IMG/VR virus record: IMGVR_UViG_2695420747_000011
Span: 1 to 14,262 of that record
Reading direction: 5' to 3' (one strand)
Origin: a virus
Lineage: Duplodnaviria > Heunggongvirae > Uroviricota > Caudoviricetes
DNA: 14,262 nucleotides
Made by a program: the position numbers and the translations under genes. The notes beneath the pieces were generated by a model. That model was not told where the DNA came from, searched no databases, and was given only the letters and a program-made list of their open reading frames with translations. Position 1 is the first letter of the stretch. Every line of letters begins with the position of its first letter. Positions 199 to 12,958 of the stretch are shown here, one piece after another.

Positions 199-1257
199 TT
201 ATGCTTTCCACTTCAGAACACCCGAATTTCTCGCGTGCATTAAAAAACGAATCAGCAACAACAGCTGACTGCCGTGTTTCTCTTCAAAATCTTTTACTCC
301 GGCATGTAGTTCGTTACGGCATTTACGGCATAACGGAATAACAAACAAATCATCAGCCTTTGTTCCCATCCCTCCCAGTCCATGACCAATGATGTGATGC
401 GGATCATCTGCCTGATTGCCACACGTCATGCATTTCTGCGTTTTTACCCAGCGCGTGTATACAGGCATCTCTTCCCGTTGTGATTTCTGGCGCTGGAGAT
501 ACTGAGCCGGTGACTCCGGATCAACGGCAATGCTGACCACCGTCTTTTCCTGTGGTGGGTTCTGTTGCTGGTGGACGTGAGGCAGTAACGCAATATTTTT
601 TGTGCGCTGCTTCAGTATGCTGGTGGCGGTCTGCTCTCCCGGTATGATGTCGCTTTCACTGTACACAGAGCGAATTTTTTCCGCACGCAACCCCAGCGAA
701 CGACGTAATACCGCTTCCGGTAGCGCGTCCGCCACCTGATTGCGGACCGCCCACCAGGATAATTCAGCCAGAGATAATTCACGCTCCTGCGTACCGCTTA
801 TTGCGTGACCGATGACGTCAATCATCCATGCTGACAGGTTTTGATGAGCAAGTTGCCCGAGTGATTCGGATGTCTGGTCACGCAGCTGGTTGTCGCAGTG
901 CCAGCACAACACCATTGCGCCGGTACCATAACGGTGAATGACGGTTTCGCTGTGATGATAATCGCCGTGTGGCCACTGGCAGGATTTAATATGGCGCAAC
1001 AGCCAGTCAGACAATGCACCAGCACCACCAGCAGCACGAATCACCCGTGCGTTACTGAAAAACGGCAGCAATGTTTTGTCTTCCACCAGCGGCTGGCGAG
1101 CGGCAGGAACGACCCCGGACGGCAGATTACGCATGCTTTTTGGTTCCGGCTCCACCAGTATTCTGCCGTTATGGAATGCTGACATTGATTCACGGCCTGG
1201 CTTAACGATAACCAGACCGAGTTCCGGTACCAGAACAGATCGAAGTAATACCCGCAC
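199..1257 (-). CDS. DUF968/YdfU-like protein with C-terminal Cys/His (HNH-like) zinc-finger motif
   Basis: 352-codon ORF; the first codon is GTG at 1257-1255, preceded by GGAGG (1266-1262). The C-terminus has CMTCGN...DPHHIIGHG...CRKCRNELH, an HNH/His-Me-finger-like arrangement. Position before rusA in a nin-like region. Family name is from memory, not a search. Confidence 0.55.
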   Translation of the reverse strand: MRVLLRSVLVPELGLVIVKPGRESMSAFHNGRILVEPEPKSMRNLPSGVVPAARQPLVEDKTLLPFFSNARVIRAAGGAGALSDWLLRHIKSCQWPHGDYHHSETVIHRYGTGAMVLCWHCDNQLRDQTSESLGQLAHQNLSAWMIDVIGHAISGTQERELSLAELSWWAVRNQVADALPEAVLRRSLGLRAEKIRSVYSESDIIPGEQTATSILKQRTKNIALLPHVHQQQNPPQEKTVVSIAVDPESPAQYLQRQKSQREEMPVYTRWVKTQKCMTCGNQADDPHHIIGHGLGGMGTKADDLFVIPLCRKCRNELHAGVKDFEEKHGSQLLLLIRFLMHARNSGVLKWKA

Positions 1258-1704: not shown

Positions 1705-1860
1705 TTACTCCTCAGGTTCGTAAGCTGTGAAGACAGCGACCTCCGTCTGGCCGGTTCGGATTCGTACCTCGCAGAGGTCTTTCCTCGTTACCAGTGCCGT
1801 CACCATGACGGTTAAACAGATGACGATCAGGGCGATTAGCATCGCCTTTTGCTGCTTCAT
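1705..1860 (-). CDS. hok: Hok/Gef-family type I toxin (51 aa, membrane-active)
   Basis: MKQQKAMLIALIVICLTVMVTALVTRKDLCEVRIRTGQTEVAVFTAYEPEE has the typical Hok/Gef/RelF N-terminal TM helix plus the conserved C...C periplasmic tail. It is near-identical to what I recall for HokD/RelF. SD AAGGAG lies about 9 nt upstream of ATG 1860. Confidence 0.85.
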   Translation of the reverse strand: MKQQKAMLIALIVICLTVMVTALVTRKDLCEVRIRTGQTEVAVFTAYEPEE

Positions 1861-1917
1861 AGCCTGCTTCTCCTTGCCTTTCGGCACGTAAGAGGCTAAC
1901 CTACGTGTGTAGAGCAT
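1705..1917 (-). CDS. mok: mok-like overlapping reading frame (in-frame N-terminal extension of hok, 70 codons)
   Basis: The track ORF MLYTRRLASYVPKGKEKQA-MKQQKAM... starts 57 nt upstream of the hok ATG in the same frame, as in mokC/hokC. By analogy it would couple hok translation. Confidence 0.55.
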   Translation of the reverse strand: MLYTRRLASYVPKGKEKQAMKQQKAMLIALIVICLTVMVTALVTRKDLCEVRIRTGQTEVAVFTAYEPEE

Positions 1918-2151
1918 AGATATGGCCTCAGATTAATGTTAAGCGTCTTGCCGGACGCGTAATGTTAACTGGGGCTTTTCTCTATCTGCCTTTTGGTGTT
2001 CATGCCTGAGACAGATAGCCTCAAGCACCCGCTGCAATTCTACTTAACTCTCCTTTTCCCGCAAACCGTTTTTATCCCCAGCGGCAAATCGAATACACCA
2101 CCAGCGCCACCGCCATCGCAATTCCTACCGTTGTTAATGCTTCAGGCCAGC

Positions 2152-4601: not shown

Positions 4602-4913
4602 TTATGCTTCGGCCTTATTTCTCAGCCATACACAAACCGGGCCATCTTCGGTGTCATGTATTGAACCAATAAACCATCCATTGCCCTCTGGTCGTTCCGG
4701 TTCCCATGCAGAAATATCAGCATCACACGCATCAAGGTCAGCACATCCTTCATCTCTGAAGCAGAGGACGTATTGAAGATTATTTTCCTCCATCCAGGCG
4801 TTAAACTCTTCCGTTGAAATATATTCCCGACCGTCACAGAATTTTTCATATTCAGGATGCGTCCAGTAGCCATATTCATCACGTACTACTGGTATTTCTT
4901 TAATTTCATTCAT
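4602..4913 (-). CDS. hypothetical acidic protein (103 aa)
   Basis: ATG 4913 overlaps the upstream stop by 8 nt (ATGAATGA). D/E- and W-rich; no recognised motif. Confidence 0.5.
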   Translation of the reverse strand: MNEIKEIPVVRDEYGYWTHPEYEKFCDGREYISTEEFNAWMEENNLQYVLCFRDEGCADLDACDADISAWEPERPEGNGWFIGSIHDTEDGPVCVWLRNKAEA

Positions 4914-5160
4914 TTCTGTTCTCCCACGTTTTCAGACTTTCACCACAGAACGGACAAAATGAAACCCGAACTGGTAATTTAGAAAATTCACCGGAACGCA
5001 ACATCACAAAATCAGGACCGCGAGTTAAACTCTCATTCCAGATTTTGTATATCAGCAGACCTTTTCGCATCGTGTATTCAGCATCATGCTCAAGGGATTT
5101 TGCCAGGGTCGTACACGGTTCTATCTTGTTGCCATAAACCTGGCATTTTGATTTACCCAC
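4906..5160 (-). CDS. hypothetical protein (84 aa) with two Cys pairs
   Basis: GTG start at 5160 with GAAGGAGG upstream; overlaps the methyltransferase stop by 8 nt. Has C6/C16 and a CPFC pair. Confidence 0.45.
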   Translation of the reverse strand: MGKSKCQVYGNKIEPCTTLAKSLEHDAEYTMRKGLLIYKIWNESLTRGPDFVMLRSGEFSKLPVRVSFCPFCGESLKTWENRNE

Positions 5161-5641
5161 TGGTCGCCTCCTTCACAAAAATAATCCAATGTGTTTTATC
5201 GTTCTTACCGGTGCGCTGGCTGATGATTGGTTTCGCGTCGGTTAGTGCCAATATCTGGCGGACAGATATTTGCGTTTCATTCCATTTAAAAATCAGAACG
5301 CCATGTGGCCACAACACACGAAAAGCTTCTTTAAATCCCTGCCGCAAATCATCACGCCAGGTATCTTTATTCAACCGTCCATATTTCTTTCCCATCCAGG
5401 CTTTATCACCAACACACTCAAGATGCGGAGGGTCGAATACAACAACCGGAAACGATGCGTCTGCAAATGGTAATGCTCGAAAATCTGCTATCAGGTCAGG
5501 ACTGATAATCAGGCGTCGTCCATCACACAATGTGTGCTCTTCTTTTCTGATATCGCTAAATATCGCCCGGTCGTCATTCTTATCGAACCAGAACATACGG
5601 CTGCCACAGCACATATCAAGAATGGTTGCCGGTGCACTCAC
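5153..5641 (-). CDS. small SAM-dependent DNA methyltransferase (N6-adenine/N4-cytosine type, DPPH motif)
   Basis: ILDMCCGSR (glycine-rich SAM-binding motif I) is followed about 55 aa later by VVVFDPPH (catalytic motif IV, D-P-P-aromatic/H). Start set at GTG 5641-5639, which has AGGAGG 7 nt upstream and forms a GTGA overlap with the upstream stop. The track ORF extends to 5710 without an ATG. Confidence 0.6.
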   Translation of the reverse strand: MSAPATILDMCCGSRMFWFDKNDDRAIFSDIRKEEHTLCDGRRLIISPDLIADFRALPFADASFPVVVFDPPHLECVGDKAWMGKKYGRLNKDTWRDDLRQGFKEAFRVLWPHGVLIFKWNETQISVRQILALTDAKPIISQRTGKNDKTHWIIFVKEATSG

Positions 5642-5793
5642 TGCGCTACCTCCTGAAAATTCCCCTGATAAAACGCCAGTACGCGCTGCATAACTTCGCT
5701 CTTCCGGCACTCGCGACAGATTATGTTCTGACGCCTGTCGTAGCGACGTATTTCTCCGTCAGGTAATAGCCAGATAAGGTCCGGATCAACCAC
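5638..5793 (-). CDS. possible small ORF (about 51 aa), or the frameshifted C-terminal part of the upstream HTH gene
   Basis: C-terminal part of track ORF 5638..5961 (VVDPDLIWLLPDGEIRRYDRRQNIICRECRKSEVMQRVLAFYQGNFQEVAQ). Candidate GTG start at 5793 overlaps the upstream stop by 8 nt. Its 3' end carries the SD and GTGA overlap for the methyltransferase. Confidence 0.3.
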   Translation of the reverse strand: MVDPDLIWLLPDGEIRRYDRRQNIICRECRKSEVMQRVLAFYQGNFQEVAQ

Positions 5794-6061
5794 AGATGGT
5801 TTCTTCAGCTTTGCCCTTGAGAGTTTTTTTGCGGGCGTTTTGCCAGTCCTTGCGCGCCTGCTCAGACGGGAATACTCCGTAACCGGAATTGTAAACATCA
5901 CCACTGGCGGCCAGCTCCATGCATAAACGACCGACAGACGTATGACTGACACCAATTTCATCCGATAACTGCCGAATCGTGCCTCGTCCGTTAAGGCGTA
6001 CGAATTCCACGATCAGCCCTTTAATTTTTTCCCGCTCTTCTTGTGTAAAAACTTTTGCCAC
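5786..6061 (-). CDS. small HTH DNA-binding protein (91 aa)
   Basis: GTG start at 6061 with AGGAGG 4 nt upstream. Putative helix-turn-helix TIRQLSDEIGVSHTSVGRL. Lies immediately downstream of the O-like gene. Confidence 0.5.
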   Translation of the reverse strand: MAKVFTQEEREKIKGLIVEFVRLNGRGTIRQLSDEIGVSHTSVGRLCMELAASGDVYNSGYGVFPSEQARKDWQNARKKTLKGKAEETICG

Positions 6062-10483: not shown

Positions 10484-12958
10484 ATGAGTAAAGTCTTTAT
10501 TTGCGCCGCCATTCCGGACGAACAGGCAATAAAGGAAGAAGGTGCCGTCGCTGTAGCCACTGCCATTGAAGCCGGTGATGAACGTCGCGCCCGCGCAAAA
10601 TTTCACTGGCAATTCCTGGAGCATTATCCGGCTGCTCAGGACTGCGCTTATAAATTTCTTGTCTGCGAGGATAAACCCGGTATACCCCGCCCTGCCCTCG
10701 ATTCCTGGGATGCTGAATATATGCAGGAAAACCGCTGGGATGAGGAGTCTGCTTCCTTTGTCCCGGTTGAGACTGAATCCGATCCGATGAACGTCACTTT
10801 TGACAAGCTGGCCCCTGAAGTACAGAACGCTGTCATGGTTAAGTTCGACACATGTGAAAACATCACCGTTGATATGGTTATTAGCGCACAGGAATTGTTG
10901 CAGGAAGACATGGCAACATTCGACGGACATATCGTTGAAGCGTTGATGAAAATGCCAGAAGTTAACGCCATGTATCCGGAGCTTAAGCTGCATGCCATCG
11001 GGTGGGTTAAGCATAAATGTAAGCCTGGTGCCAAATGGCCCGAAATTCAGGCAGAGATGCGCATCTGGAAAAAACGTCGCGAAGGTGAACGCAAGGAAAC
11101 CGGAAAATACACGTCTGTTGTTGATCTCGCCCGCGCCAGAGTCAATCAACAGAACACTGAAAACTCAGCAGGAAAAATCAACCCAGTCACTGCCGCCATT
11201 TGTCGCGAATACAAGCAGACATGGAAAACGCTGGATGAAGAACTGGCCTACGCTCTCTGGCCTGGCGATATTGATACCGGAAACATTGACGGCAGCATCC
11301 ATCGCTGGGCAAAAAATGAAGTTATCGACAAAGATCGCGAAGACTGGAAGCGCATTTCCGCATCAATGCGCAAACAACCCGATGCCGTTCGCTACGACCG
11401 TCAGACTATTTTTGGCCTTGTCCGTGAGCGTCCGATCGACATTCACAAAGATCCCGTAGCACTGAACAAATACATCACTGAATACCTGACTACCAAGGGC
11501 GTGTTTGAAGATGACGAAGGAACAAATCAGGGCACAGCTGGTACTCTCCCGTCACCAGTACCAGAAACTGATGCAGTGGAAACGGCAATGCCGGACAACG
11601 AAAAAACCGAATGCGAAGTGGAAGACGAACCATCTGTAGAGCGTGAGGGACCGTTCTACTTCCTTTTCACCGATAAGGACGGCGAAAAATACGGTCGCGC
11701 AAACAAACTTTCTGGTCTGGAAAAAGCACTGGCCCTGGGAGCTACGGAAATCACAAAAGAGGAATACTTCGCACGTAAAAACGGTACATACTCAGGTTCA
11801 CAACAAAATACTGGTGCATCTGACACGACCGCACAACCAGAGCCAGTAAAAGTTACCGCTGACGAAGTAAACAAAATTATGCAGGCAGCCAATATCAGCC
11901 AGCCTGACGCCGATGAACTGCTTGCAGTATCACGTGGTGAATTTGTTGAAGGGATTAGCGACCCGAATGATCCGAAATGGGTTAAGGGGAACCAGACCCG
12001 CGATTCTGTGAACCAGAACCAGCAAGAAACGGAACAGAACGACCAGAAAGCGGAACAAAACAGCCCAAATGCGTTACAAAACGAGCCAGAAACGAAACAG
12101 CCTGAATCAGTGGCGCAACAGGAAGTGGAAAAAGTCTGCACCGCCTGCGGTCAGACCGGCGGCGGCAACTGCCCTGATTGTGGCGCGGTAATGGGCGACG
12201 CAACATACCAGGAAACATTCGATGAAGAGTATCAGCCTGAAGTTCAGGAAGATGATCCAGAGGAAATGGAAGGCGCTGAACATCCACACAAGGAGAACAC
12301 TGGCGGCAATCAGCATCACGATAGCGATAATGAAACTGGCGAGACGGCAGATCACTCAATTAAGGTGAACGGTCATCAAGAAATCACATCCACCAGCAGA
12401 ATGTGGCACCACATGATGATCGACCTTGAAACCATGGGAAAAAATCCCGATGCCCCGCTTATCTCAATAGGTGCAATATTTTTCGATCCGCAAACCGGAG
12501 ATATGGGGCCGGAATTTAGTAAGACCATCGATATGGATACTGCTGGCGGAGTCATTGATCGTGGCACCATTAAATGGTGGCTTAAGCAATCACGGGAGGC
12601 GCAATCTGCCATTCTGACCGATGAAATCCCGTTAGATGATGCACTGCTGCAATTGCGGGAATTTATCGACGAAAACTCCGGCGAATTTTTTGTTCAGGTC
12701 TGGGGAAATGGAGCCAACTTCGACAACACGATTTTGCGCCGTTCATACGAACGGCAGGGGATCCCCTGCCCGTGGCGTTACTACAACGATCGCGATGTAC
12801 GCACAATCGTTGAGCTGGGAAAAGCCATGGACTTCGATGCCAGGGCGGCTATTCCATTCGAAGGTGAGCGCCACAATGCGCTGGATGATGCCCGTTACCA
12901 GGCAAAATACGTTTCAACTATCTGGCAAAAACTGATCCCGAATCAGGCTGATTTTTAA
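10484..12958 (+). CDS. prophage exonuclease (824 aa): RecE-like N-terminal/central region, CxxC...CxxC zinc ribbon, C-terminal DEDDh 3'-5' exonuclease domain
   Basis: SD GAGGT precedes ATG 10484. The C-terminal domain has the three DnaQ-like motifs: MMIDLETMG (Exo I), VWGNGANFDNTIL (Exo II) and ERHNALDDARYQ (Exo III with His). A zinc ribbon CTAC...CPDC lies at 12137-12181. Central SRGEFVEGISDPNDPKWVKG and Q/E/N-rich linker resemble what I recall of RecE-type proteins. Confidence 0.7.
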   Translation: MSKVFICAAIPDEQAIKEEGAVAVATAIEAGDERRARAKFHWQFLEHYPAAQDCAYKFLVCEDKPGIPRPALDSWDAEYMQENRWDEESASFVPVETESDPMNVTFDKLAPEVQNAVMVKFDTCENITVDMVISAQELLQEDMATFDGHIVEALMKMPEVNAMYPELKLHAIGWVKHKCKPGAKWPEIQAEMRIWKKRREGERKETGKYTSVVDLARARVNQQNTENSAGKINPVTAAICREYKQTWKTLDEELAYALWPGDIDTGNIDGSIHRWAKNEVIDKDREDWKRISASMRKQPDAVRYDRQTIFGLVRERPIDIHKDPVALNKYITEYLTTKGVFEDDEGTNQGTAGTLPSPVPETDAVETAMPDNEKTECEVEDEPSVEREGPFYFLFTDKDGEKYGRANKLSGLEKALALGATEITKEEYFARKNGTYSGSQQNTGASDTTAQPEPVKVTADEVNKIMQAANISQPDADELLAVSRGEFVEGISDPNDPKWVKGNQTRDSVNQNQQETEQNDQKAEQNSPNALQNEPETKQPESVAQQEVEKVCTACGQTGGGNCPDCGAVMGDATYQETFDEEYQPEVQEDDPEEMEGAEHPHKENTGGNQHHDSDNETGETADHSIKVNGHQEITSTSRMWHHMMIDLETMGKNPDAPLISIGAIFFDPQTGDMGPEFSKTIDMDTAGGVIDRGTIKWWLKQSREAQSAILTDEIPLDDALLQLREFIDENSGEFFVQVWGNGANFDNTILRRSYERQGIPCPWRYYNDRDVRTIVELGKAMDFDARAAIPFEGERHNALDDARYQAKYVSTIWQKLIPNQADF

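What the first reader, a model, noticed from the sequence alone, without database searches (positions are those of the whole stretch)
5153..5641. Orphan small DNA methyltransferase with no adjacent restriction endonuclease gene
A 162-aa protein with SAM-binding (DMCCGSR) and DPPH catalytic motifs. No neighbouring ORF looks like a restriction endonuclease. Orphan phage methyltransferases typically protect phage DNA from host restriction or modulate gene expression. The His in place of the usual Tyr/Phe/Trp in motif IV and the compact size make the target specificity worth determining.
Basis: partly seen in the sequence, partly recalled or inferred. Interest (0 to 1): 0.4.

Follow-up and report, generated by a model that had tools for sequence, protein, structure and literature searches.

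The report
Minimal solitary prophage methyltransferase, substrate untested
This is a real, intact 162-residue methyltransferase gene in the early region of an E. coli lambdoid prophage; it belongs to a widespread phage family that probably methylates DNA without a partner restriction enzyme, though nobody has tested what the family methylates.

Summary
The ORF at 5153..5641 (- strand) is real. It has a GTG start, an AGGAGG ribosome-binding site 7 nt upstream, and start/stop overlaps with both neighbouring genes. The protein is identical to RefSeq WP_001275729.1, and 873 of 5426 complete E. coli genomes carry a copy at ≥80% nucleotide identity.

It belongs to a large phage/prophage family (PHROG 954) of about 150-residue enzymes found in phages of at least five bacterial phyla at 45-62% identity. 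The DPPH motif is a family hallmark (287 of 294 members), not a local mutation.

The predicted fold (pLDDT 94) is a stripped-down class I SAM methyltransferase with no room for a target-recognition domain. No restriction enzyme or other conserved partner lies beside it, in the window or in 171 related loci.

No Pfam DNA-methylase model reaches threshold. However, profile comparison shows residues 40-153 are most similar to the catalytic half of beta-class DNA amino-methyltransferases (YhdJ, E 1e-6). The gene always sits in phage replication modules and often abuts true DNA methylases.

My best reading (about 0.5) is a minimal DNA N6-adenine or N4-cytosine methyltransferase with short or relaxed specificity, used against host restriction. 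RNA or another substrate is not excluded. This is an ordinary kind of gene from an uncharacterised lineage.

The parts
5153..5641 (-). Coding sequence of the 162-aa minimal class I SAM-dependent methyltransferase (GTG start, TAA stop)
   Evidence: ORF list; PGAP CDS WP_001275729.1 at the same coordinates; PHROG 954 at E 2.9e-86; AF2 model with pLDDT 94.4
5649..5654 (-). Shine-Dalgarno AGGAGG, 7 nt upstream of the GTG start; the start overlaps the stop of the upstream gene (GTGA, 5638-5641)
   Evidence: Read directly from the sequence
5600..5623 (-). Motif I (residues 7-14, ILDMCCGS): strand beta1 plus the SAM-binding loop. CCG replaces the usual GxG
   Evidence: Alignment conservation: L8, D9, C12 and G13 are each >=90% conserved; strand 7-9 in the model
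5552..5554 (-). Asp30 at the end of strand beta2 (motif II position, the acidic residue that binds the SAM ribose in class I methyltransferases)
   Evidence: Present in 290 of 294 members; strand 26-30 in the model. The role is inferred from general knowledge of class I methyltransferases
5423..5437 (-). Motif IV, FDPPH (residues 69-73), immediately after strand beta4: the putative catalytic tetrapeptide with His in the aromatic position
   Evidence: Sequence; DPPH in 287 of 294 members; aligns with DPPY of YhdJ and of the M.EcoGI/II-type enzyme
5638..6061 (-). Upstream DUF977 ('LygF/Ren-like') gene, split by a +1 frameshift in an A7 run (T-run 5824-5830 on the + strand). Context only, not a functional partner
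   Evidence: Pfam DUF977 matches both halves; PGAP flags it 'frameshifted'; alignment to an intact allele
4906..5160 (-). Downstream 84-aa ORF (PHROG 4030, unknown function). Its GTG start overlaps the methyltransferase stop by 8 nt and has its own AGGAGG. Same operon, but not conserved next to the family elsewhere
   Evidence: neighbour clustering

Best explanation
The gene encodes a self-sufficient, solitary, minimal SAM-dependent methyltransferase of a phage-restricted family (PHROG 954).

Shown: the protein consists only of a reduced Rossmann-type methyltransferase core. Motifs I-III (LDxCCGS, Asp30, Asp53) lie at the N-terminus and DPPH follows strand beta4. There is no target-recognition domain and no conserved partner protein. 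The gene sits in the early rightward operon of a lambdoid prophage, in the order cro, ydaT-like gene, O-like replication initiator, DUF977, methyltransferase, then small nin-type ORFs, with overlapping stop and start codons.

Inferred: the gene is silent in the lysogen and switched on with DNA replication after induction or infection. The enzyme flips a base into the DPPH pocket and methylates an exocyclic amino nitrogen, adenine N6 or cytosine N4. It acts on replicating phage DNA, and incidentally on host DNA. Because there is no recognition domain and the whole sequence is conserved across phages of unrelated hosts, I expect one very short or relaxed specificity shared by the family. Progeny DNA would then be protected against many host restriction systems at once. 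M.EcoGII and the 141-aa phage Dam PamA are precedents for this kind of role.
For: - Family and state of the gene. PHROG 954 'DNA methyltransferase' at E 2.9e-86. PADLOC MTase_II at 3.7e-71 and orphan MTase at 1e-48. All residues that are >=90% conserved in the family are present in this copy.
- Fold. The AF2 model has pLDDT 94.4, seven strands and only three helices, with nothing beyond the core.
- Catalytic half. hhalign of the family profile against single proteins gives its best scores to beta-class DNA amino-methyltransferases. YhdJ scores E 1.1e-6 over 103 columns, matching our residues 40-153 to YhdJ 12-124. The 349-aa M.EcoGI/II-type enzyme of the same prophage scores E 2.6e-6. RNA, protein and small-molecule-type controls score worse: RlmK domain 3.1e-5, CmoM 5.8e-4, PrmA 2.9e-3, RsmD 0.039, TrmM 0.049, PrmC 0.064. 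Fourteen of 43 members give weak Pfam N6_N4_Mtase hits.
- Context. The gene lies in phage replication and recombination modules in phages of Actinobacteria, Firmicutes, Bacteroidetes, Verrucomicrobia and Proteobacteria. A verified DNA methylase (C5, N6_N4 or Dam) is directly adjacent in 5 of 10 annotated phages. One lies within 4 kb in 21 of 91 phage-type loci, and within 5 kb in 14 of 80 bacterial genome loci. DNA methylases are the second commonest class of immediate neighbour (8 of 150), after SSB and other replication proteins.
- Solitary status. No neighbour family recurs. The commonest is found in 16 of 83 viral/phage loci. In bacterial genomes, 153 neighbours fall into 138 clusters. No endonuclease family appears.
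- Phage restriction. The family is in 254 of 50,697 phage records but only 61 of 72,556 plasmid records.
- Precedents. PamA is 141 aa, carries NPPY and methylates GATC (PMC12435837). M.EcoGII is a non-specific, prophage-borne enzyme that is silent in lysogens (PMC5778455).
Against: - No experiment on any family member was found (paper searches).
- No Pfam or NCBIfam DNA-methylase model reaches its threshold. The best Pfam matches are the generic Methyltransf_11/25.
- The hhalign margin over an rRNA m7G methyltransferase domain (RlmK) is only about 30-fold. One beta-class phage methylase (Bran gp64) scored poorly, at E 0.38.
- A 'DPP' after beta4 also occurs in RlmI/RlmK-type RNA enzymes, so it does not prove amino-methylation.
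- Identity of 45-62% across phyla is unusually high for DNA methyltransferases and would also fit a universally conserved RNA or small-molecule substrate.
- Adjacency to DNA methylases is guilt by association only.
Confidence: 0.5

Rival explanations
1. It is an RNA methyltransferase. The phage modifies host or phage tRNA or rRNA (m2G, m6A or m7G type), for example to tune translation or to shield tRNA from anticodon nucleases. This matches PGAP's 'TRM11 family' label.
For: - PGAP product name.
- hhalign to the RlmK domain gives E 3.1e-5.
- Very high conservation across phyla fits a universal RNA target.
- In Corynebacterium phage Bran an RtcB RNA ligase and a tRNA gene lie close by.
Against: - There is no THUMP, PUA or other RNA-binding domain, and no Pfam UPF0020 hit.
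- No Trm112-like partner is conserved.
- RsmD, TrmM and PrmC score far worse in hhalign than DNA beta-class enzymes do.
- The surrounding genes are DNA replication and DNA methylation genes, not tRNA or translation genes.
Confidence: 0.2
2. It methylates something other than a nucleic-acid polymer. Candidates are a protein amide or amine (as HemK/PrmC or NRMT do) or a nucleotide or small molecule (for example a defence signalling nucleotide). In that case it would act as a host-takeover or anti-defence factor.
For: - The closest sequence relatives in Pfam and PDB are Methyltransf_11-type enzymes, many of which act on small molecules or lipids.
- HemK and NRMT1 appear in the Foldseek list.
- With no recognition domain and a tiny size, a small substrate would be easy to accommodate.
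- The family is restricted to phages and sits among accessory genes.
Against: - PrmC scores only E 0.064 in hhalign.
- No pathway genes or defence-related partners are conserved nearby.
- The catalytic half aligns best with DNA amino-methyltransferases.
- No literature supports this reading.
Confidence: 0.12
3. It is a DNA methyltransferase, but its main role is regulatory (timing of phage replication or packaging, or lysogenic conversion of host gene expression as with PamA) rather than protection from restriction.
For: - PamA, a 141-aa prophage methylase, rewires S. aureus gene expression (PMC12435837).
- The same prophage already carries an M.EcoGI/II-type, presumably non-specific, adenine methylase that could cover anti-restriction.
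Against: - Its position in the repressed early lytic operon, with no promoter of its own above chance, argues against expression in the lysogen.
- Broad distribution across unrelated hosts argues against a host-specific regulatory target.
- Decayed copies in cryptic prophages show the host does not need it.
Confidence: 0.1
4. It is a non-functional remnant with no activity.
For: - Qin-type alleles are pseudogenes: K119 is replaced by a stop, and a second stop follows.
- 118-aa truncated forms occur in several IMG/VR loci.
- The upstream gene in this window is frameshifted.
Against: - This copy is full length, keeps every residue that is >=90% conserved in the family, and has a strong ribosome-binding site.
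- The identical protein is seen on 145 contigs.
- Family-wide conservation implies purifying selection.
Confidence: 0.05

Closest known systems
Beta-class exocyclic-amino DNA methyltransferases (Pfam N6_N4_Mtase PF01555; E. coli YhdJ, M.EcoGI/M.EcoGII)
   Same: Residues 40-153 align with the N-terminal catalytic half of these enzymes: the strand before motif IV, DPP[Y/H], the following W/Y-containing segment, and the 'RVLkPgG' helix-strand up to motif VIII. The scores are E 1.1e-6 and 2.6e-6. Like them it is prophage-borne, solitary and presumably silent in the lysogen (PMC5778455).
   Different: - Motif order is I-III then IV-VIII, not IV-VIII, TRD, I-III, so it is circularly permuted relative to the beta class.
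- It has no target-recognition domain and is about half the size.
- His replaces Tyr/Phe in motif IV, and CCG replaces GxG in motif I.
- The Pfam model does not reach threshold.
Minimal phage Dam enzymes (Pfam Dam PF05869; S. aureus prophage PamA, 141 aa, NPPY, GATC)
   Same: They are about 140-170-residue phage methyltransferases without a separate recognition domain. They are solitary and lie in the same early modules; one sits 192 nt from a family member in Bacteroides phage BKO1-TP3. They show that such small enzymes can methylate DNA (PMC12435837).
   Different: The family is not homologous at a detectable level: there is no Pfam hit, and hhalign gives E 0.014 over 19 columns. PamA carries NPPY rather than DPPH.
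Trm11/UPF0020 tRNA m2G10 methyltransferases (source of the PGAP name)
   Different: There is no THUMP domain, no Trm112-type partner, and no PF01170 hit. The profile search against PDB gives Trm11 only E 0.66. The label reflects superfamily-level resemblance, not membership.
Generic Methyltransf_11/25 class I methyltransferases (e.g. Pyrococcus PH0226, PDB 1ve3)
   Different: These families lack the DPPH catalytic tetrapeptide, have the full complement of Rossmann helices, and have no phage association. PH0226 itself is uncharacterised, so the match says nothing about substrate.

Membership tests
Beta-class N6/N4 DNA amino-methyltransferases (PF01555) | Pfam model reaches its gathering score | tested here: not met
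   This protein gives no hit. Fourteen of 43 relatives give only weak hits, the best at E 9.7e-4.
Beta-class N6/N4 DNA amino-methyltransferases (PF01555) | (D/N/S)PP(Y/F/W) motif IV directly after strand beta4 | tested here: inconclusive
   DPPH is at residues 70-73, after strand 64-69. His occupies the aromatic position in 292 of 294 members. It aligns to DPPY of YhdJ and of the EcoGI/II-type enzyme.
Beta-class N6/N4 DNA amino-methyltransferases (PF01555) | Motif order IV-VIII, then TRD, then X and I-III | tested here: not met
   Motif I is at residues 7-14 and motif IV at 69-73, so the order is I-III then IV-VIII, as in the gamma class.
Any sequence-specific DNA methyltransferase (alpha, beta or gamma class) | A target-recognition domain | tested here: not met
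   The 162 residues are fully used by the catalytic core. Extensions in homologues are not conserved.
Any DNA methyltransferase | Methyl transfer to DNA demonstrated | not testable with these tools
   No publication on the family was found.
Type II restriction-modification system | A cognate restriction endonuclease gene adjacent | tested here: not met
   Window ORFs give no endonuclease or defence hit, and PGAP annotates none. No recurrent neighbour appears in 83 viral/phage loci or 80 bacterial genome loci. Pfam scans of 150 immediate neighbours show no REase family; the ResIII hits come with helicase domains.
Trm11 / UPF0020 RNA methyltransferases (PF01170) | THUMP RNA-binding domain plus a UPF0020 catalytic domain that reaches the Pfam threshold | tested here: not met
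   No PF01170 or THUMP hit in this protein or in 43 relatives. The protein is core-only.
Trm11 / UPF0020 RNA methyltransferases (PF01170) | Trm112-type activating partner | tested here: not met
   No conserved neighbouring small protein. The downstream 84-aa ORF (PHROG 4030) is not conserved next to the family.
Phage Dam (PF05869, PamA-like) | Pfam model hit, or detectable homology | tested here: not met
   No Pfam hit. hhalign gives E 0.014 over 19 columns only.
Methyltransf_11 (PF08241), generic class I domain | Pfam gathering score (21.2 bits) | tested here: inconclusive
   This protein scores 19.4-19.9 bits, just below the cut-off. Forty-one of 43 relatives match at E<=0.1, the best at 3.7e-10.
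PHROG 954 / PADLOC PDLC03288 (phage 'DNA methyltransferase' cluster) | Full-length profile match | tested here: met
   E 2.9e-86 over residues 24-183 of the 185-aa ORF, and E 3.7e-71. These names are annotations, not tested functions.
Class I SAM-dependent methyltransferase fold | Seven-stranded sheet with the motif I loop, an acidic residue after beta2, and an acidic residue before beta4 | tested here: met

The most novel reading that the evidence does not exclude
The family may be a distinct minimal lineage of phage methyltransferase: a 150-residue, TRD-less, circularly permuted relative of beta-class enzymes with a DPPH active site. On this reading its activity differs from a classical site-specific DNA methylase in one of two ways. 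Either it is an essentially sequence-independent DNA or ssDNA amino-methyltransferase, which would make it among the smallest DNA methyltransferases I am aware of (comparable to the 141-aa PamA) and a universal anti-restriction tool. Or it acts on a universally conserved RNA or nucleotide as an anti-defence device. Either would explain the 45-62% identity across phages of five phyla.
Probability: 0.3. Interest if true: 0.65.

Novelty: new member of a known kind. Interest (0 to 1): 0.3.

Why it matters
Solitary phage methyltransferases are a standard counter-measure to restriction, so this gene fits a known kind. What is worth knowing is the family, not this copy.

About 2000 clusters at 50% identity, in phages of very different bacteria, share a 150-residue enzyme with no recognition domain and an invariant DPPH. 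The family is also present in roughly one in six complete E. coli genomes. I found no study in which any member was tested.

If it proves to be a relaxed-specificity DNA methylase, it would be a very compact tool for footprinting or for bypassing restriction barriers, and a common hidden source of methylation after prophage induction. If it acts on RNA or a nucleotide, the 'DNA methyltransferase' labels in PHROGs, in PADLOC and in deposited phage annotations would be wrong for thousands of genes.

Tried and rejected
- **Longer 185-aa ORF from GTG 5710.** Rejected: homologues, PGAP and the ribosome-binding site all support 5641.
- **N- or C-terminal extensions in homologues as hidden recognition or RNA-binding domains.** They are not conserved and have no informative Pfam domain. 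The ~248-aa forms simply run into the next gene.
- **Downstream 84-aa Cys-containing ORF as a Trm112-like partner.** It has no Pfam hit, belongs to PHROG 4030 (unknown function), and is not conserved beside the family.
- **DUF968/HNHc_6 protein (199..1257) as a cognate nuclease.** It is a standard lambdoid late-early gene about 4 kb away, with no PADLOC hit.
- **Sequence search of PDB with the single protein.** No hit.
- **Literature.** Seven searches found no paper on the family. Fang et al. 2012 (PMC3879109) is not held.
- **K-12 gene name.** I checked whether the copy in a 'DH5alpha' assembly meant the gene has a K-12 name. It lies in a Qin-type prophage segment that MG1655 lacks, and it is a pseudogene.
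- **Own promoter.** The scan is no better than shuffled sequence.

Full report
**1. What is in the sequence**

The window is the early region of a Qin/Rac-like lambdoid prophage of E. coli. It is 100% identical to isolate AF39 (NZ_OZ547136.1), where the prophage lies next to ompW.

On the minus strand the gene order is:
- a cro-type repressor gene (7509..7724)
- a YdaT/cII-position gene (7087..7512)
- an O-like replication initiator (6102..7079)
- a frameshifted DUF977 gene (5638..6061)
- the ORF in question (5153..5641)
- a string of small nin-type ORFs, hokD/sok, a DUF968 gene and, outside the window, rusA and Q

The divergent LexA-family repressor is at 7717..8490.

The mechanical ORF extends to GTG 5710 (185 aa), but the real start is GTG 5641. 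AGGAGG lies 7 nt upstream, and the GTG overlaps the TGA of the upstream gene. Homologues start at the equivalent place, and PGAP annotates exactly this CDS as WP_001275729.1. The stop overlaps the GTG start of the next ORF by 8 nt, and that ORF has its own AGGAGG. A promoter scan finds nothing above the shuffled background. The gene therefore reads as part of the early rightward operon.

**2. The protein and its family**

Residues 7-14 (ILDMCCGS) form motif I. Asp30 ends strand beta2, and Asp53 precedes the 'LPF..D.sF' strand. FDPPH (69-73) follows strand beta4.

The family is large:
- 7819 clusters at 90% identity with E<=1e-5
- 1990 representatives of 50%-identity clusters at E<=1e-3, of which 216 are at E<=1e-30

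It is spread over phages of Streptococcus, Vibrio, Acinetobacter, Porphyromonas, Listeria, Gordonia, Lactobacillus, Enterococcus, Staphylococcus, Bacteroides, Akkermansia and others, at 45-62% identity to the E. coli protein.

Only the ~150-residue core is conserved. N- and C-terminal extensions are unrelated to one another and carry no informative domain.

DPPH is present in 287 of 294 aligned members, and in 156 of 158 of the divergent subset. The His is therefore a lineage signature rather than a degenerate Tyr.

The window copy retains every residue that is >=90% conserved in the family. The identical protein occurs on 145 contigs, including E. coli 55989. In all, 873 of 5426 complete E. 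coli genomes have a copy at >=80% nucleotide identity. Some of these are decayed: the Qin-type allele carries K119stop.

**3. Structure**

An AlphaFold2 model built on 43 diverse sequences is confident (pLDDT 94.4, pTM 0.89). It shows the seven-stranded class I methyltransferase sheet but only three helices (82-87, 95-109, 127-131). The helices that normally follow beta1, beta2 and beta3 are replaced by loops and a beta-hairpin (34-46, carrying the conserved LCDGR). Nothing lies outside the core, so there is no target-recognition domain.

- other Methyltransf_11-type proteins

The first DNA methyltransferase in Foldseek is at rank 46. These searches confirm the fold but do not decide the substrate.

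**4. Profile evidence**

Pfam and NCBIfam give nothing above threshold. Methyltransf_11 scores 19.4-19.9 bits against a cut-off of 21.2, and Methyltransf_25 is sub-threshold. Across 43 members, 41 touch Methyltransf_11, 35 touch Methyltransf_25 and 14 touch N6_N4_Mtase weakly. A family HMM against PDB sequences finds PH0226 (E 1.2e-5). Amino-methyltransferases (UPF0020, RsmD, a Thermus beta-class methylase, Trm11) appear only at E 0.3-0.7, through the DPPH region. PHROGs and PADLOC recognise the family strongly and call it a DNA, Type II or orphan methyltransferase. Those names are annotations, not tests.

To get a ranked comparison I ran hhalign with the family profile against single reference proteins:

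| Reference protein | Type | E-value |
|---|---|---|
| YhdJ | beta-class N6-adenine DNA methylase | 1.1e-6 (91% probability, 103 columns; our 40-153 vs YhdJ 12-124) |
| 349-aa N6_N4 methylase of this prophage | M.EcoGI/II type | 2.6e-6 |
| RlmK domain of RlmL | rRNA m7G | 3.1e-5 |
| CmoM | Methyltransf_11 type | 5.8e-4 |
| PrmA | protein methyltransferase | 2.9e-3 |
| Bacteroides phage gp24 | PF05869 Dam | 0.014 |
| RsmD | rRNA m2G | 0.039 |
| TrmM | tRNA m6A | 0.049 |
| PrmC | protein glutamine | 0.064 |
| Corynebacterium phage Bran gp64 | N6_N4 methylase | 0.38 |

Residues 40-153 thus look like the N-terminal catalytic half (motifs IV-VIII) of beta-class DNA amino-methyltransferases. They end where the recognition domain of those enzymes would begin. 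The SAM-binding motifs sit in front rather than behind.

Anatomically, the family is a permuted beta-class-like core without a recognition domain. The margin over an RNA enzyme is modest (about 30-fold) and the templates were single sequences, so I treat this as suggestive rather than decisive.

**5. Genomic company**

I clustered neighbours in 83 loci: 80 IMG/VR loci, two phage records and the window. No family recurs in more than 16 of them, even among close enterobacterial relatives.

In 80 species-representative bacterial genomes (mostly Firmicutes, with Elusimicrobia, Campylobacter, Treponema and others), 153 immediate neighbours fall into 138 clusters. Their Pfam content is a phage replication module: SSB (6), C5 DNA methylase (5), RusA, YopX, ParB_N, DnaB_2, MazG, helicases, and one each of N6_Mtase, Dam and N6_N4_Mtase. 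No restriction-endonuclease family is present.

Ten annotated phages from five phyla show the same setting, and in five of them a verified DNA methylase is directly adjacent:
- C5 methylase in Gordonia phage Nymphadora, Akkermansia phage Chantilly and a Porphyromonas phage
- N6_N4 methylase in Corynebacterium phage Bran
- Dam in Bacteroides phage BKO1-TP3

Overall, 21 of 91 phage-type loci have another DNA methylase within 4 kb, and 13 have one within 300 nt.

The family is rare on plasmids (61 of 72,556 records), and the listed hits are mainly large, non-mobilizable replicons such as Clostridium botulinum and Ralstonia plasmids.

In the window itself, neither Pfam nor PADLOC finds any endonuclease or defence protein. 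So the gene is solitary, and there is no conserved partner of any kind.

**6. Interpretation**

Shown:
- an intact, strongly conserved, phage-restricted, core-only class I methyltransferase
- a D-P-P-His motif in the catalytic position
- location in the early lytic operon next to replication genes
- no restriction enzyme or other fixed partner

Inferred:
- expression only after induction or infection
- methylation of an exocyclic amino group of a flipped base in DNA
- a short or relaxed specificity shared across the family, because there is no recognition domain and the putative contact loops are conserved
- benefit through evasion of host restriction

There are precedents for tiny or non-specific prophage DNA methylases. 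PamA is 141 aa, carries NPPY and methylates GATC (PMC12435837). M.EcoGII is 349 aa, methylates any adenine and is silent in the lysogen (PMC5778455). The prophage that contains this window also carries a 349-aa beta-class methylase of the M.EcoGI/II type downstream of Q, so the small enzyme would add a second activity.

I put the DNA-methylase reading at about 0.5, an RNA target at about 0.2, another substrate at about 0.12, a mainly regulatory role for a DNA methylase at about 0.1, and inactivity at about 0.05.

**7. Comparison with known families, and novelty**

The protein is a member of PHROG 954. It is not a member of PF01555, PF05869 or the Trm11/UPF0020 family by their defining features (see the membership table). 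It probably works like a beta-class amino-methyltransferase.

The instance itself is an already catalogued RefSeq protein. The kind, a solitary phage methyltransferase, is well known. The lineage is biochemically uncharacterised as far as seven literature searches could show.

Interest is modest for this copy and higher for the family question of what a 150-residue, recognition-domain-less DPPH enzyme methylates.

Noticed in passing
window 1705-2030 (- strand): A hok/sok type I toxin-antitoxin module: sok antisense RNA at 1855-2030 (Rfam RF01794, 117 bits), with hokD annotated at 1705-1860.
   Followed up: partly
window 9789-9840 (+), with dicB at 10015-10203 (+): DicF small RNA (Rfam RF00039, 76.7 bits) upstream of the cell-division inhibitor gene dicB, as in the K-12 Qin prophage.
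   Followed up: partly
window 5638-6061 (- strand); T-run 5824-5830 on the + strand: The DUF977 ('LygF/Ren-like') gene just upstream of the methyltransferase is split into two frames by one extra A in an A7 run, compared with an intact A6 allele (L089). This could be a real mutation, slippage or a homopolymer sequencing error. It may affect translational coupling into the methyltransferase.
   Followed up: partly
L001 376-1425 (same prophage, about 2.6 kb beyond window position 1, downstream of Q, next to tRNA-Ile/tRNA-Arg): A second solitary methyltransferase: 349 aa, beta-class N6_N4_Mtase (E 2e-44). It has the same length and setting as the non-specific adenine methylases M.EcoGI/M.EcoGII.
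   Followed up: partly
L089 6001-6489 (Qin-type prophage in an assembly labelled DH5alpha); IMG/VR loci L041, L043-L045, L068, L069: An 86%-identical allele of the small methyltransferase is a pseudogene (K119 replaced by a stop, a second stop, and F69L). 118-aa truncated forms recur. Of the 874 E. coli records with a match, 752 fall in the 80-90% identity band, so many E. coli copies may be decayed. MG1655 lacks this segment altogether.
   Followed up: partly
window 10484-12958 (+): An 824-aa ORF whose C-terminal 170 residues are an Rv2179c-like 3'-5' exoribonuclease domain (E 2e-66); PGAP calls it '3'-5' exonuclease'. The long acidic N-terminal part has no Pfam match.
   Followed up: no
IMG/VR loci L023, L035, L037, L039, L042 (and proteins P0013, P0083): About 248-aa variants of the methyltransferase carry a non-conserved C-terminal extension. 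This ORF overlaps a downstream large C5 cytosine DNA methylase gene by 78 nt, so the two methylase genes are tightly packed.
   Followed up: partly
IMG/VR locus L016 1130-2578: A fusion of a PAPS-reductase-like domain with a PF05869 Dam methylase (482 aa) lies near the small methyltransferase in several enterobacterial prophages. A separate PAPS-reductase gene sits in the methylase cluster of Bacteroides phage BKO1-TP3.
   Followed up: no
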